From NCBI GenBank assembly GCA_017794945.1, contig CP051239.1, positions 1,538,692 to 1,602,691 on the forward strand: 64,000 nt of DNA. Reading direction: 5' to 3'. The notes under the pieces are model-generated. The model had not been told where the DNA came from. It did no database searches and worked only from the letters and a program-made list of their open reading frames with translations. Of the stretch, positions 32,631 to 36,709 are shown piece by piece. Positions within the stretch are counted from its first letter, which is position 1, and the number at the start of each line of letters is the position of its first letter. The position numbers and the translations under genes are program-made. The stretch is from Alcanivorax sp. (GTDB lineage: Bacteria > Pseudomonadota > Gammaproteobacteria > Pseudomonadales > Alcanivoracaceae).

Positions 32631-33737
32631 ATGAATCGTGTACTGGTACTCGGCGGTGGCCAGCTCGGCCTGATGATGGCGGAGGCCGCCGCCCGCCTGG
32701 GCCTGGTGGTGGACCGTTACGACCCGGAGCGCGCCCTGCTGCTGCCCGGCACCTCCGATCTGGCGGTGCCGATCACCTGGGAAGAGTGCCTGGAGCGCTA
32801 CCCGGTGGTCACCGTGGAGCGCGAGGCGTTCCCCGACAGCGGCCTGTCCGCGCGGCTGGCGGCCAGTGACCGCTGCGTGGCGCGCGGCGCCCTGGCGGTG
32901 ATCCCGGACCGCTACACGCAGAAATCGATGCTCGATGAATTGGGCATCGCCACCGCCCCCTGGCGCAACCTGGACCGGGTCGAGGATCTGGCGGACGCCG
33001 CCGCCGAGTTCGGCGGGGTGGTGGTGAAGGCGCGCAGCGGCGGCTACGACGGCCGCGGCACCTGGATCGTCGGCGACGGCGGCGACCTGTCCGCGGTGCC
33101 GGCGGAGGAGCTGGCCGGGCGCGCCATCGTCGAGAAGAAGATTCCGTTCCGTCGCGAGCTGTCCATCGTCGGCGCCCGCAACCCGGCCGGCGAGACCCTG
33201 TTCTACCCGCTCACCCGCAACTGGCACGTGGACGGCATCCTGCGCCTGAGCCTGGCGCCGGCCAACGCCAGCGCCGCGCTGCAGCCGGAGGCGGAGAACA
33301 TCCTGCGGCGAATCATGGAAAAGCTGGATTACGCCGGCGTCATGGCGGTGGAGTTCTTCGAGGAAGACGGCCGCCTGCTGGTCAACGAGATCGCGCCCCG
33401 GGTGCACAACTCCGGCCACTGGACCCACGAGGGCGCCGACTGGTCGCAGTTCGATCTGCACGTGCACGCCCTGGCCGGCGTACCGCTGCACTCGCTCAAC
33501 GTGCACGGCCCCAGCGCCATGGTGAACCTGATCGGCACGCCCTTTGACCAGGCCTGGCTGCAGCACCCGGGCGTGGTGCACTGGTACGGCAAGAGCGTGC
33601 GTCCGGGCCGCAAGGTGGGCCACGCCAACCTGGTGGCGCCAACCCTGGAAGGCCTGCGCAACGGCCTGAACGCCTGGGCCGACGTGCTGCCGGAAGGCTT
33701 TGAGGCGATCCTCGACTCGGAGCTGGCGCTGGACTGA
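32631..33737 (+). CDS. purK: N5-CAIR synthase
   Basis: LGGGQLG, GYDGRG, NEIAPRVHNSGH, RPGRKVGH. Confidence 0.95.
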   Translation: MNRVLVLGGGQLGLMMAEAAARLGLVVDRYDPERALLLPGTSDLAVPITWEECLERYPVVTVEREAFPDSGLSARLAASDRCVARGALAVIPDRYTQKSMLDELGIATAPWRNLDRVEDLADAAAEFGGVVVKARSGGYDGRGTWIVGDGGDLSAVPAEELAGRAIVEKKIPFRRELSIVGARNPAGETLFYPLTRNWHVDGILRLSLAPANASAALQPEAENILRRIMEKLDYAGVMAVEFFEEDGRLLVNEIAPRVHNSGHWTHEGADWSQFDLHVHALAGVPLHSLNVHGPSAMVNLIGTPFDQAWLQHPGVVHWYGKSVRPGRKVGHANLVAPTLEGLRNGLNAWADVLPEGFEAILDSELALD

Positions 33738-33765
33738 AGGTCCTCACCCACCCTGGCCGTAAAGA

Positions 33766-33790
33766 AAACGCCCCGCGAATGCGGGGCGTT
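33766..33790. terminator. Terminator between purK and the convergent hydrolase gene
   Basis: AACGCCCCGC-gaat-GCGGGGCGTT. Confidence 0.75.
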
Positions 33791-34130
33791 GTCGTTCAGG
33801 GGTTGGAACGAGCGTTTACGGAGGGGTGCAGGCCGGTAGACCTGGCCGATCCACCGTGGAATACGCGCAGCCGAAGTTGCTTGCGGCCACAGCCTCTTCG
33901 TCGAGGAAGTCGTCGCCGCCGGGCATCGGTCCGCCCTGTTCCCAGGCCACCATGTCCTCAAAGGCGTTGATCTGCTCATCCAGGGTGAAGTCGCAATGGG
34001 AGGGTGAGCGGATCGCCCGCTGCACCAGCCAGCCGCCATTGCCGTTGGCCTCGGCCCGTTTACGATAGATTTTGCCGTGCTCGAAGGGCACATACAGGTC
34101 GCCCAGACCCTGTAGATACTCTGTTAGAAC

Positions 34131-35123
34131 TCAAGCTTTCAGATGCTCTTCACTGAAGAGCATCGCTGAATCAAAAGCAGTCTCTGTCTGTATGCAGGCC
34201 CACAAACCAGTGAGGTACTTCCGCATCACGGCGCATAGGGCCTGGATCTTCTTTTTGCCCCGTGACACAAGGGCGTCGTAAAAGGCCTTCACCCGCGGGT
34301 CGTGCTGGACGGCGCTCATGGCTGGCATGTACAAGGCCGCCCGGAGATAAGCATTACCCGCCTTGCTCAAGCGCGCTGGCCGATTGACGCTGCTGCCCGA
34401 CTGCGTCAATCGGACATCCAGGCCTGCAAAACGACTGACTTGCGGGGCTTTCAGACTGGAAGGCAGCACACACAGCTCCGCCAGTACGATCAGGGCGGTG
34501 GCCTTACCAACGCCTTTGGCGGCACACATATGGGTAAGGTACCGGGACAGGGTTTCACACTCCGCGATCAGCGCCAGCGCCGCCTGGCTCAGCCGTTCAA
34601 TGCGCCTATCCAGGTAGGCGATACCCTCTTGTTCGTCCTCAACCAGTAGGGACCGGGTCGAGTTCTTGGCCTGTAGGGCATGCAGCCGGTTCTTGGCTTG
34701 GGTCCGGGTACCGGTCAAGCGGTTGATCTGCCGCCCGATATCGCGCAGCGCCAGCCGGACCTCATCGGGAGGTGTCCACAGCGAGGGCTCGATGCGTTCA
34801 CCGTATTCCGCCAGCAAGGCGGCATCGACCCCGTCGGTCTTGCTCCCGGCCAACTTCAGTTTAGCGAAGTGGTGGAAGCTTTTGGGATTGATGACTGCCA
34901 CCGGCAGCCCTGCTTGCACCAAGGCTACCGCCAAATCAAAGTAGTAGATTCCCGTCGCTTCCATAGTGATGAGCGTGGGCTTGAGGTTGTGGAGGCGCTT
35001 GATCGCTTTGGCGTGCCCCTGGGGCGATTGCGAGAACGACTCCACCTTGGAAGCCTTGCCTCCCTTGCGGTTCACCAGATCAAAGGTTTTCGCCGCAATA
35101 TCTACGCCCACAAACACACTCAT
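34131..35123 (-). CDS. IS110 DEDD recombinase/transposase (330 aa)
   Basis: VGVDIA, MEATG, KTDGVDA (DEDD); C-terminal Tnp domain with QSGSS serine and SKAGNAYLRAALY; ATG 35123 after GAGGAAGGG. Confidence 0.95.
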   Translation of the reverse strand: MSVFVGVDIAAKTFDLVNRKGGKASKVESFSQSPQGHAKAIKRLHNLKPTLITMEATGIYYFDLAVALVQAGLPVAVINPKSFHHFAKLKLAGSKTDGVDAALLAEYGERIEPSLWTPPDEVRLALRDIGRQINRLTGTRTQAKNRLHALQAKNSTRSLLVEDEQEGIAYLDRRIERLSQAALALIAECETLSRYLTHMCAAKGVGKATALIVLAELCVLPSSLKAPQVSRFAGLDVRLTQSGSSVNRPARLSKAGNAYLRAALYMPAMSAVQHDPRVKAFYDALVSRGKKKIQALCAVMRKYLTGLWACIQTETAFDSAMLFSEEHLKA

Positions 35124-35159
35124 ACCCTTCCTCTCGCATCGACATCTATTCCACAATAG

Positions 35160-35350
35160 CCACCGGTTCCCCGACCTCGCACTTGATACTGCCTCGACCT
35201 TGCGATACGAAGTCCGGCCAATCCGGCTTCTTGATACTCTTCGAGGTTGGTAATGAGGCGGGGAGCCACTCTACATACGAGGTCAGTCAACACTGCCTCC
35301 AGGCTCAGACGGCCTCCCCGGTAACTGGTGGACAACCTTAACTGTTCATC
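35160..35350 (-). ncRNA. IS110 bridge RNA (target-binding and donor-binding loops); ends approximate
   Basis: Two stem/internal-loop/hairpin units whose loop guides match the flanking target and the element's circle junction (see findings). Confidence 0.82.
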
Positions 35351-36709
35351 GGTATTGAACATACAAGGCTCACGACCGGAATGTTGAATTCCCCGTTGAT
35401 CACCGGAATCCAGCGCAAGCCGTCGGAGCGACGGGCATTGGCGGATGGGTTGTCCTCCACGCGCAGGATGGTGTCGTTGAACGCCTGTTCCTCGGCAGTG
35501 AGCGTGGGAGCATTATCGAACTGATACTCGACGCCAGCGTTGCCGGTCAGCTCTTCCGCGAGGATGCCGTTAACAGTGCCATCCCTGCCGCCCGTGCCCA
35601 TTACGGTCCCCCACAGGGCGGTGCGGAAACCGATATCGGCGATCGGACGTTCGCCGCCGGTGAGGTGCCGGAACAGCGCCTGCATCTTCTCGCCTTCTTC
35701 ACTAAGGACGCCTAACGAGACGCCCGCTGGCGGGGTGTCCCACACCACGTCGTTGATGGCGTCGATGTCGAAGTTAGTGGCGGGGATAGCTTCCAGGGGC
35801 GGCGCGCTCGGGTCCACCGTGTGTGCGAAGTGCTGCGCTGCCATGGTCGCCTGGGTGAGATATTGGAACTCGTAGGTGTCACCCACTACGCCACAGATCG
35901 GCACGGCGCCGTGGTACTGCACCGGGTTGTTGGCGGTGGCCAGGGTTTCGTCCTCGATGGCGGCGGCGGTGACATGGCCGCCCATGGAGTGGCCGATAAT
36001 GTAGAGGCGGTCCGGGTCGGCGAGGCCGGTGATGTCGGTGAACGCCAGCGCCAGTTCGTTGGTGTCCTCGACGCCGGTGCGCACGTCGTAGAAGTTCGTG
36101 GAGTAGCTGGAGGCGGCCCAGGCGTAGCCGTTATCCAGCAGCCACTGGCGAATGCTGGGGTTGCCGACGGTGAGTTCGGAACCCTCGCCCCGGTAGCCGT
36201 GGGCGTACATCACCAGGCGGCCGTTCCAGGCGGCCGGAACCTCAATGCGGTAGCTGGCGCCGTTGGGGCGGATGCCGGACCACTGTTCGGCGTCATCGTG
36301 GCCGGTGACGCCGCCTTCCGCGTCGAAGGCGGCGGCCTGGGTTTCGCTGGCGGTGAAAGTGCGGGTGTCCTGGACGCGCGCCGGTTGTGACGGCTCGCCG
36401 ACGCCGGAGCTGCTGCTGTCGCCGCCGCAGCCGGCCAGCAACCCGGCGCTCAGCAGGCCGGCCAGAAGCCCGATCCTGGGTATTGTGAAATGGGTGCTCA
36501 TTGCTGCTCTCCCTGTTTTATTGGAATTGTGGGTCTTTTGTTCTTTGTGTTTCGCTATGCGAAATAGCTTTCTAAAAGAAAGCAGCGGTTAATATCCGCC
36601 CGATGAATAAAAGCTGTCAATAACCTGAGAGGCCGAACGGGGAATTTGAGAGGTGGTCGTGAAGGCGCCTTGTGGGCGCTTGCCGGGTGGCTGAAAGCCA
36701 CCCTTTCGC

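What the first reader, a model, noticed from the sequence alone, without database searches (positions are those of the whole stretch)
34114..35367. Intact IS110 bridge-recombinase system with readable bridge-RNA guides for both target and donor
Seen in sequence, reading the minus strand. Junctions are cgtgagc[CT]tgtatgttc... and ...cagagtat[CT]acagggt, so the pre-insertion target is CGTGAGC-CT-ACAGG and the circle (donor) junction is AGAGTAT-CT-TGTAT. The ~240-nt non-coding end holds two stem/internal-loop/hairpin units. Unit 1 is closed by GGGGAG(G)CC/GGCTCCCC with inner hairpin GAGGCAGT-gttg-ACTGACCTC; it carries TCTGAGCCT (35309-35301; last 7 of 9 nt identical to target-left plus core) and TGTAG (35275-35271; complement of CTACA). 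Unit 2 is closed by CCTCGA/TCGAGG with inner hairpin GAAGCCGG-attgg-CCGGACTTC; it carries AGAGTATC (35240-35233; 8/8 with donor-left) and GCAAG (35203-35199; pairs CTTGT with one G:T). Established: this is the target-loop/donor-loop architecture of IS621 bridge RNAs, and the recombinase keeps DEDD plus the Tnp-domain Ser. From memory, the donor is about one base from the IS621 donor, while the target guide is different. Inference: an active, naturally re-targeted RNA-guided recombinase orthologue; the class is known, but this guide set may be new.
Basis: partly seen in the sequence, partly recalled or inferred. Interest (0 to 1): 0.9.

Follow-up and report, generated by a model that had tools for sequence, protein, structure and literature searches.

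The report
Intact IS110 bridge-RNA insertion sequence
This is a complete 1,250-bp IS110-type mobile element whose own non-coding RNA carries guide loops matching both its insertion sites and its own ends, so it is a clean but ordinary member of the known bridge-recombinase class (IS621-like).

Summary
A 1,250-bp element (window 34116-35365, minus strand) sits between two CT dinucleotides. It encodes a 330-aa IS110 recombinase with DEDD (D8, E55, D97, D100) and Ser242-Gly243. Its 242-nt left end holds two stem/internal-loop/hairpin units, and all four guide strings are at the stated coordinates. Joining the flanks through one CT restores a hydrolase gene that is intact in seven congeners.

The bridge-RNA reading is supported by comparison as well as by resemblance. 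In 18 orthologues (61-81% protein identity) the left target guide tracks each element's own left flank: 99 of 126 matches against 56.6 +/- 5.4 when pairings are shuffled, 0 of 20,000 shuffles as good.

The effective site is TGAGC-CT-ACA. The window copy matches 10/10 and was the only such site in the genome. The second, identical copy matches 9/10 inside a 22-member hairpin-repeat family. Near-identical copies elsewhere all sit at GAGC-CT-ACA.

The donor differs from published IS621 by one base.

Expression and activity were not shown. It is a new member of a known kind, of modest interest.

The parts
34116..35365 (-). Whole IS110-group element, 1,250 bp. It has no terminal inverted repeats. 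A second, 100% identical copy lies at G000:C1:1037722-1038971.
35366..35367 (-). CT core at the left junction (left target-CT-right donor).
34114..34115 (-). CT core at the right junction (left donor-CT-right target).
34131..35123 (-). Recombinase gene, 330 aa plus a TGA stop. RuvC-like DEDD residues are D8, E55, D97 and D100. The Tnp-domain residues are S242-G243. The ATG at 35123 follows GAGAGGAAGG, and the orthologues start at the aligned codon.
35158..35351 (-). Inferred bridge RNA, element nt about 15 to about 208. The 5' end is inferred from the -10 box. The 3' end is inferred from the outer helix and the near-invariant segment at nt 176-208. Neither end has been mapped.
   Evidence: inference.
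35264..35314 (-). Target-binding loop arm, nt 52-102. It consists of a closing stem, an internal loop and the inner hairpin at nt 67-87 (35299-35279).
   Evidence: The inner hairpin is 99% paired with three compensatory pairs.
35301..35309 (-). Left target guide, TCTGAGC+CT. Only TGAGC+CT tracks the flanks in this clade.
   Evidence: The match rate at positions -5 to -1 is 84-100%, at -6 it is 53% and at -7 it is 16%.
35270..35275 (-). Right target guide UGUAG, complementary to CT-ACA. It is followed by A (35270), at the handshake position that can pair with donor T7 after strand exchange.
35192..35246 (-). Donor-binding loop arm, nt 120-174. It consists of the closing stem CCUCGA/UCGAGG and the inner hairpin at nt 136-157 (35230-35209).
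   Evidence: There are four compensatory pairs in each stem, and 0 of 300 shuffles reach the observed values.
35233..35240 (-). Left donor guide AGAGUAUC, identical to the last 7 nt of the element plus the C of the core. IS621 has ACAGUAUC at the same place.
35198..35203 (-). Right donor guide GCAAG, which pairs with CT-TGT through one G:T, as in IS621. It is followed by G (35198), at the handshake position that can pair with target C7.
35318..35326 (-). 5' strand of the outer helix P1 (AGUUACCGG, nt 40-48). It pairs with 35158-35166 (CCGGUGGCU, nt 200-208).
   Evidence: It is 96% paired, has three compensatory pairs, and 0 of 300 shuffles reach both measures.
35169..35178 (-). 3' strand of helix P2 (GAGGUCGGGG, nt 188-197). 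It pairs with CCCCGCCUC (nt 103-111, 35263-35255).
   Evidence: The helix is nearly invariant, with one compensatory G:C to A:U change.
35358..35363 (-). -10 box TATGTT in the left end, invariant in all orthologues examined.
34129..34134 (-). -35 box TTGAGT in the right end, overlapping the TGA stop. Orthologues have TTGACN. It lies 17 bp from the -10 box only when the right end, CT and left end are joined.
   Evidence: No promoter-like site was found in the integrated context.
34123..34125 (-). Subterminal inverted repeat AAC. Its partner GTT is at 35358-35360. The pair brackets the 14-bp donor, in the same arrangement as the ATA/TAT pair of IS621.
   Evidence: One search shows it conserved in all orthologues. 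Searches give the IS621 counterpart.
35368..36501 (-). N-terminal 378 codons of the interrupted host gene, a lipoprotein-like alpha/beta hydrolase with GHSMGG.
33816..34113 (-). C-terminal remainder of the interrupted host gene.

Best explanation
This is a complete, probably mobile IS110-group insertion sequence that works as IS621 does.

1. When the element is excised as a circle, or sits in tandem, its right and left ends join through the CT core. That junction assembles a sigma-70 promoter: -35 TTGAGT in the right end, a 17-bp spacer, and -10 TATGTT in the left end.
2. The promoter drives a bridge RNA of roughly 190 nt encoded in the 242-nt left end.
3. The RNA has two internal loops, each with a conserved bulged-A hairpin (GAxGC...GACxUC).
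4. The donor loop (AGAGUAUC... and ...GCAAG) holds the joined ends, AGAGTAT-CT-TGTAT.
5. The target loop (UGAGCCU and UGUAG) holds a genomic site, TGAGC-CT-ACA.
6. A tetramer of the 330-aa DEDD/Ser recombinase exchanges strands at CT. The element is inserted with CT on both sides.

Shown here: the anatomy, the exact boundaries, the catalytic residues by alignment, the fit of guides to sites at several independent insertions, the tracking of flanks by the guide across orthologues, and compensatory support for most helices.

Inferred: transcription of the RNA, its ends, binding by the recombinase, and present-day activity.
For: Protein:
- IS110 domains are present, and the protein passes the NCBIfam equivalog for the RNA-guided transposase.
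- It aligns end to end with the solved ISCro4 and IS621 recombinases, with all five catalytic residues kept.

Boundaries:
- One CT plus the flanks restores a gene that is intact in 7 congeners.

Guides:
- The four strings are in the internal loops. They follow the published strand rules.
- They nearly copy the IS621 donor guides: LDG A[C/G]AGUAUCA and RDG GCAAGGU.

Comparison across 18 orthologues:
- The left guide matches each element's own left flank, 99/126 against 56.6 +/- 5.4, with 0 of 20,000 shuffles as good.
- The right target positions +1 to +3 match in 92-100%.

Sites of this element:
- The window copy sits at TGAGC-CT-ACA, a 10/10 match. No other TGAGCCTACA exists in the 3.14-Mb genome.
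- Copy 2 sits at GGAGC-CT-ACA.
- Near-identical elements (0-1 differences over the laid element) in four other public runs, and a 23-nt left end of it at a contig end in congener G015, are flanked by GAGC-CT and/or CT-ACA(G/T)GG.

Structure:
- Compensatory changes support both inner hairpins, the donor-loop stem and the outer helix.

Promoter and ends:
- The split promoter and the AAC/GTT subterminal repeat are conserved in all orthologues.

Mobility:
- There are two 100% identical copies.
- The element is sporadic in its genus: 2 of 18 congeners hold it or a piece of it, and 2 more hold 68%-identical relatives.
Against: - No direct evidence of RNA or of recombination was obtained.
- RNA-library contigs cover the element but cannot show transcription, and no right-end/left-end junction was seen in the contigs.
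- The -35 box is one base weaker than in the orthologues (TTGAGT against TTGACN). The joined promoter scores 8 of 12, below the 9 of 12 that the scan tool requires.
- The right donor guide carries two wobble pairs where most orthologues have Watson-Crick pairs.
- Guide positions -7 and -6 do not match either site in this genome. In IS621 all nine non-core positions matter.
- Only two copies are present.
- The closing stem of the target loop is ambiguous between two registers.
Confidence: 0.88

Rival explanations
1. The element looks intact but is now immobile in this host. On this view the guide matches only record past insertions, and the weakened promoter and wobble pairs mark the start of decay.
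For: The -35 box is TTGAGT where orthologues have TTGACN. The right donor guide has two wobble pairs. Only two copies exist, and no circle junction was seen in the contigs.
Against: The two copies are 100% identical over 1,250 bp. The reading frame and all catalytic residues are intact. Near-identical copies sit at different sites in runs from other studies. IS621 itself has the same G:T wobble in its right donor guide.
Confidence: 0.08
2. Site choice is made mainly by protein or DNA-structure recognition of the hairpin repeat (REP-like targeting). On this view the RNA loops play little part.
For: Copy 2 and most copies seen in other runs lie in the apical part of a long-hairpin repeat family. 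In many orthologues the left target is the 3' arm of a short GC-rich hairpin. A preprint abstract reports a sequence-structure 'dual-match logic' for target recognition by ISPpu10.
Against: The window copy lies in a coding sequence with no such repeat, yet it matches the guide 10/10. The left guide changes together with the flank across orthologues. A structural contribution on top of RNA guidance is not excluded.
Confidence: 0.03
3. The structured left end is only a 5' untranslated regulatory region of the recombinase mRNA.
For: It lies directly upstream of the gene. The near-invariant 3' segment ends about 35 nt before the ribosome-binding site.
Against: A leader would not need loops that copy the element's ends and the flanking DNA, nor loops that vary with the flanks. 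The layout matches the solved IS621 RNA.
Confidence: 0.01

Closest known systems
IS621 (Escherichia coli), bridge recombinase and bridge RNA; structures 8WT6 and others
   Same: - The same two protein domains and all five catalytic residues.
- A long left end and a short right end, a CT core, and a split promoter.
- Two internal-loop guides with the same strand logic.
- The donor is identical at 13 of 14 positions.
- The donor guides are A[C/G]AGUAUCA and GCAAGGU, including the G:T wobble and the G/U handshake bases.
- Natural sites end in CTAC and lie in palindromic repeats.
   Different: - The protein is only distantly related (phmmer E 3.2e-36).
- There is no DNA match to any E. coli genome.
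- The target guide is different, TCTGAGC against AUCGGGC.
- Only about 5 left-target positions appear to be read here, against 7 in IS621.
- The right target guide reaches +3.
- The RNA appears to be closed by extra helices (P1, P2) and to run about 30 nt past the donor loop.
- The linker and the 5' stem-loop are unrelated to those of IS621.
IS622 / ISCro4 (Citrobacter rodentium)
   Same: It is the best-scoring solved relative (E 2.4e-42) and belongs to the same class.
   Different: ISCro4 is 88% identical to IS621. It is therefore about as distant from this element as IS621 is.
ISPpu9 / ISPpu10 (Pseudomonas putida), IS110 elements that insert into REP or conserved intergenic repeats
   Same: They insert into a multicopy palindromic repeat at a fixed motif (abstracts listed).
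   Different: They have different hosts and guides. No sequence comparison was made here. The window copy shows that this element can also hit a coding site with no repeat.
IS1111-group elements (seekRNA type)
   Same: They have a DEDD recombinase and RNA-guided insertion.
   Different: In IS1111 elements the RNA lies in a long right end and the subterminal repeats are 7-17 bp long. Here the left end is 242 nt, the right end is 15 nt and the repeat is 3 bp, which is the IS110-group layout.

Membership tests
IS110 family (DEDD recombinase) | An N-terminal RuvC-like DEDD domain plus a C-terminal Tnp domain with a catalytic Ser. | tested here: met
   PF01548 scores 5.1e-24 and PF02371 scores 5.9e-17. 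NF033542 scores 188 bits against a 140-bit cut-off. D8, E55, D97, D100 and S242-G243 align to IS621 D11, E60, D102, D105 and S241-G242.
IS110 group (as opposed to the IS1111 group) | A long non-coding left end, a short right end, and only a 2-3-bp subterminal inverted repeat. | tested here: met
   The left end is 242 nt, and 15 nt follow the stop codon at the right end. AAC/GTT bracket the donor in all orthologues.
IS110 group | Insertion without terminal inverted repeats, with a core dinucleotide on both sides and precise boundaries. | tested here: met
   CT lies at both junctions. One CT restores the gene. The same is true of copy 2.
Bridge-RNA system | Two internal loops: one matches the target (left side identical to the top strand, right side complementary) and the other matches the joined element ends. 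| tested here: met
   Searches show the loops and one search gives the rules. Target loop: 7 of 9 and 5 of 5 at the window site. Donor loop: 8 of 8, and 5 of 5 with one G:T.
Bridge-RNA system | Guide nucleotides vary together with target DNA across orthologues. | tested here: met
   99 of 126 matches against 56.6 +/- 5.4 in shuffles, with 0 of 20,000 as good. The right target positions +3 to +5 give 20 of 36 against 12.1 +/- 2.6. The orthologues are related, so the test is not fully independent.
Bridge-RNA system | Conserved secondary structure of the loops, supported by compensatory changes. | tested here: met
   Both inner hairpins and the donor-loop stem each carry 3-4 compensatory pairs, and 0 of 300 shuffles reach the observed values. 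The register of the target-loop closing stem is unresolved.
Bridge-RNA system | A promoter split across the right-end/left-end junction. | tested here: met
   TTGAGT, 17 bp, TATGTT across the joined ends. Orthologues have TTGACN. The match is 8 of 12 in this element, which is weak.
Bridge-RNA system | Handshake bases next to the core-binding bases pair with the non-cognate DNA after strand exchange. | tested here: inconclusive
   The A after GUAG can pair with donor T7, and the G after CAAG can pair with target C7, as in IS621. These positions do not vary in this clade, so no covariation can be seen.
Bridge-RNA system | The RNA is expressed and bound by the recombinase, and guide changes redirect recombination. 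| not testable with these tools
   Contigs from RNA libraries cover the element, but they cannot show transcription, RNA ends or strand.
Rfam RNA family | A match to a curated covariance model. | tested here: not met
   No Rfam 15 family matched the left end at E <= 1. I take this to mean that no fitting bridge-RNA model is in that library, not that the RNA is absent.

The most novel reading that the evidence does not exclude
In this gammaproteobacterial clade the bridge RNA may not be the open two-arm RNA of IS621. It may instead be a closed three-way junction.

- A near-invariant 3' segment (element nt 176-208) pairs with the 5' side to form P1 (nt 40-48/200-208).
- The same segment pairs with the C-run at nt 103-111 to form P2.
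- The target-loop stem could also use that C-run.

The RNA could therefore switch between a state with a short target-loop stem and a state with a long one. That would gate target binding or couple it to recombinase translation.
Probability: 0.15. Interest if true: 0.5.

Novelty: new member of a known kind. Interest (0 to 1): 0.3.

Why it matters
It is a tidy natural example of RNA-guided insertion, in which guide, donor, empty site and natural target repeat can all be read from sequence.

- It adds a compact orthologue (330-aa recombinase, 1,250-bp element) that is distant from IS621 but has an almost identical donor and donor loop. This suggests the donor side is under strong constraint across the group.
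- It suggests that fewer left-target positions are read in this clade.
- It shows an off-repeat insertion that knocked out a secreted hydrolase at the only perfect site in the genome.

None of this changes what is known about the class.

Tried and rejected
- Rfam scan of the region found no bridge-RNA family. The only hit was a sub-threshold asX2 match outside the element.
- blastn of the element against 5,426 E. coli genomes found no match, so IS621 could not be fetched that way. The published IS621 RNA and DNA sequences were taken from a paper's supplement instead.
- The single-sequence fold of the left end was not distinguishable from shuffles (z = -1.16). Structure was therefore judged by comparison across orthologues.
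- Laying contigs of three RNA libraries and one DNA run gave full cover of the element, but contigs cannot show transcription, ends or strand. No right-end/left-end joint was seen. This is neither support nor evidence against.
- The promoter scan of the integrated copy found no site.
- Rfam hits of the hairpin repeats to plant and animal microRNA precursors are far below the gathering scores. I take them as generic long-hairpin matches.
- Literature searches found no paper linking IS110 or bridge RNA with Alcanivorax. The 72-orthologue screen names no host from this clade in its main text.
- I did not use the pair-count tool, because it needs a long typed structure string. Equivalent counts with slid and shuffled controls were scripted instead.
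- Percent identity to IS621 was not computed, because no protein id was available for the solved chain.
Full report
**What is there**

On the minus strand, window 34116-35365 is a 1,250-bp element bounded by CT on each side (35367-35366 and 34115-34114). It holds one long frame. The ATG at 35123, preceded by GAGAGGAAGG, gives a 330-aa protein, and all orthologues start at the aligned codon.

The protein carries DEDD_Tnp_IS110 (5.1e-24) and Transposase_20 (5.9e-17). It passes NCBI's equivalog model 'IS110 family RNA-guided transposase' at 188 bits against a 140-bit cut-off. It aligns over its full length with the solved ISCro4 (2.4e-42) and IS621 (3.2e-36) recombinases.

The published IS621 catalytic residues are D11, E60, D102, D105 and S241-G242. 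Allowing for the two extra residues at the start of the solved chain, they align to D8, E55, D97, D100 and S242-G243 here. The Ser lies in the motif QSGSS, not in RLSKAG.

**Boundaries**

The element interrupts a gene on the same strand. Joining the 90 nt on each side through one CT gives a sequence that aligns without a gap to the intact gene of seven congeners. The protein reads ...EFNIPVVSLQGLGDLYVPF... in all of them.

The congeners have AGC-CTG-CAG at the site, and this genome has AGC-CTA-CAG. The target therefore exists here only because of synonymous differences. The host gene encodes a lipoprotein-like alpha/beta hydrolase with GHSMGG, with only weak Pfam hits.

**The guides**

The published rules say that LTG and LDG are identical to the top strand left of and including the core, and that RTG and RDG are complementary to the top strand from the core rightwards.

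- Target loop: UCUGAGC-CU against CGTGAGC-CT, 7 of 9. UGUAG is the complement of CT-ACA.
- Donor loop: AGAGUAUC against AGAGTAT-C, 8 of 8. GCAAG pairs with CT-TGT through one G:T.

The published IS621 sequences (supplement read) are donor ACAGTAT-CT-TGTAT, LDG ACAGUAUCA and RDG ...GCAAGGU. The donor here differs at one of 14 positions. The donor guides are almost the same, including the A opposite the core T, the G:T wobble and the G-U bases at the handshake positions. The IS621 target guide, AUCGGGC-CU, is different.

**Comparison across relatives**

A scan of species-representative genomes returned 41 related loci. Of these, 18 with 61-81% protein identity, from Marinobacterium, Zhongshania, Microbulbifer, Parahaliea, Rheinheimera, Thioalkalivibrio, Frateuria and others, had usable left ends. 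In all of them the ends are conserved: AAC-[A/G]GAGTAT-CT-TGTAT-GTT. The nine nucleotides at the LTG position vary, and they match each element's own left flank.

- Over 18 elements there are 99 of 126 matches, against 56.6 +/- 5.4 when guides are shuffled among elements. The maximum in shuffles is 80, and 0 of 20,000 reach the observed value.
- The match rate by position is 16% at -7, 53% at -6 and 84-100% at -5 to -1.
- The right target matches in 92-100% at +1 to +3, 50% at +4 and 25% at +5.

In this clade the site that is read is about 5 + CT + 3, here TGAGC-CT-ACA. The elements are related to each other, so the shuffle count overstates independence. The signal is nonetheless large.

**Sites of this element**

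The genome is one 3.14-Mb contig of 64.5% G+C and 86% estimated completeness. It holds exactly two copies, 100% identical.

- The window copy fits TGAGC-CT-ACA 10 of 10. No unoccupied TGAGCCTACA remains anywhere in the genome, where 3.8 would be expected from composition.
- The second copy sits at GGAGC-CT-ACA, 9 of 10.
- Of the 16 unoccupied GAGCCTACA sites, 13 extend to GAGCCTACAGGG. Those 13 lie in a repeat family with 22 members carrying CCTACAGGGAYRTA. Each member is an imperfect long hairpin of about 120 bp, with a fold energy of -91 to -103 kcal/mol for the three members folded as 155-nt segments. The family has three sub-types, and copy 2 is inside one member.
- Contigs from four other public runs carry the same element with 0-1 differences. 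They match the window only as far as GAGC-CT on one side and CT-ACA or CT-ACAGGG on the other, and then diverge into repeat-like flanks.
- A congener's contig ends in ...CCAACGCGAGC-CT-TGTATG....

As with IS621 and REP elements, the usual landing pad is a multicopy palindromic repeat ending in CTAC. The window copy is an off-repeat hit on the best match in the genome.

**RNA structure**

The single-sequence fold is not better than shuffles (z = -1.16). RNAalifold and my own pair counts on 19 sequences give the following.

- Target-loop inner hairpin: 99% paired over the 7 pairs tested, with 3 compensatory pairs.
- Donor-loop inner hairpin: 97% paired, with 4 compensatory pairs.
- Donor-loop closing stem: 91% paired, with 4 compensatory pairs.
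- For each of these three, 0 of 300 partner shuffles reach the observed values, and sliding the partner by 1-3 columns drops pairing to 18-51%.

Both inner hairpins share the pattern GAxGC...G(A)CxUC with a bulged A.

A51 faces C in 9 of 18 orthologues. The register shifted by one (G52:Y102, G53:C101, C54:G100, C55:G99) fits better and shows a compensatory A:U.

- An outer helix P1, nt 40-48 with 200-208: 96% paired, 3 compensatory pairs, 0 of 300 shuffles.
- A short helix UAC/GUA around the donor arm, with 2 compensatory pairs.
- A nearly invariant helix P2, CCCCGCCUC with GAGG(U)CGGGG, with one compensatory change.

The data cannot decide between these alternatives. The segment at nt 176-208 is nearly invariant across the clade, so the RNA probably extends well past the donor loop. 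A neighbouring first-stage note (e1-5492171) read the second AGTATCAAG as a collapsed donor loop. Orthologues have GCATCAAG there, and the T in this element is the compensating partner of A115 in the UAC/GUA helix.

**Promoter**

Joining the right end, CT and the left end gives TTGAGT, 17 bp, TATGTT. The -35 box overlaps the recombinase stop codon. All 17 other elements that have both ends carry TTGA(C/A/T)N at the same distance, 15 of them TTGACN, and an invariant TATGTT. This reproduces the split promoter described for IS621.

In this element the -35 box is one base weaker. The integrated context has no promoter-like site. The interrupted gene is co-oriented, so read-through could supply some RNA; that is inference. 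For IS621 itself, weak RNA expression from integrated copies and inefficient excision have been reported.

**What is not shown**

Transcription, RNA ends, binding and recombination were not shown. RNA-library contigs cover the element at word depths of 29-116, but they cannot prove expression. No circle junction appeared in the contigs.

**Verdict**

The corrections concern the register of one stem, the extent of the RNA, the number of target positions read, and the nature of the natural target.

The class has been known since 2024, and bridge RNAs were predicted in 85.7% of IS110 elements. NCBI's model name already calls these proteins RNA-guided transposases. I rate it a new member of a known kind, with modest interest. 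The only possibly new point is the closed three-way-junction form of the RNA, which needs experimental mapping.

Noticed in passing
G000:C1, 22 sites, for example 762628(-), 762823(+), 1033757(-), 1033954(+), 1766906(-), 1767270(+); loci L052-L054. None lies inside the window.: A family of imperfect long hairpins of about 120 bp. The three members folded as 155-nt segments gave -91 to -103 kcal/mol. There are three sub-types that differ in their stems, but all share the apical motif [A/G]AGC-CT-ACAGGGA[C/T]GTA. Members often occur in adjacent, oppositely oriented pairs. No Rfam family fits; only sub-threshold microRNA-precursor hits were returned. This family is the usual landing site of the IS.
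   Followed up: partly
G000:C1:2544762-2546983, 2638716-2639015 and 259430-259705: Five matches to Y1_Tnp (PF01797), three of them clustered. They may be REP-associated tyrosine transposases linked to the hairpin repeats. No link was tested.
   Followed up: no
L026:2503-2520 (Rheinheimera MAG): The right end of one orthologous IS is followed directly by CT and the left end of another copy. This head-to-tail tandem carries the joined right-end/left-end promoter in chromosomal DNA.
   Followed up: no
window 33816-34113 plus 35368-36501 (-): The interrupted gene encodes a protein of about 475 aa with a lipoprotein-type signal (LLAGCGG) and a GHSMGG nucleophile elbow. Pfam gives only weak hits (Peptidase_S9, 19.6 bits). 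The gene was found in 17 of 18 congeners, as an uninterrupted open frame of 460-531 aa. The insertion separates the Ser motif from the last 99 codons.
   Followed up: partly
window 33691-33789 (+): A sub-threshold Rfam match to Xanthomonas sRNA asX2 (22 bits against a gathering score of 70). It ends in a GC-rich hairpin, GCCCCGCGAATGCGGGGC. This is probably just an intrinsic terminator between convergent genes.
   Followed up: no
L011, L012, L013, L019, L056 and L057 (contigs of 1,259-1,281 bp): Several orthologues sit on stand-alone contigs of element length that end a few bases beyond CT. This is the signature of multicopy repeats collapsed by short-read assembly, so these elements are probably multicopy in those genomes.
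   Followed up: no
L017:1172-2510: In a Rhodanobacter MAG the distance from the TGTATGTT end to the right end is 1,337 bp, about 87 bp more than in the other orthologues (1,245-1,263 bp). The extra sequence lies near the left end, before the target loop.
   Followed up: no
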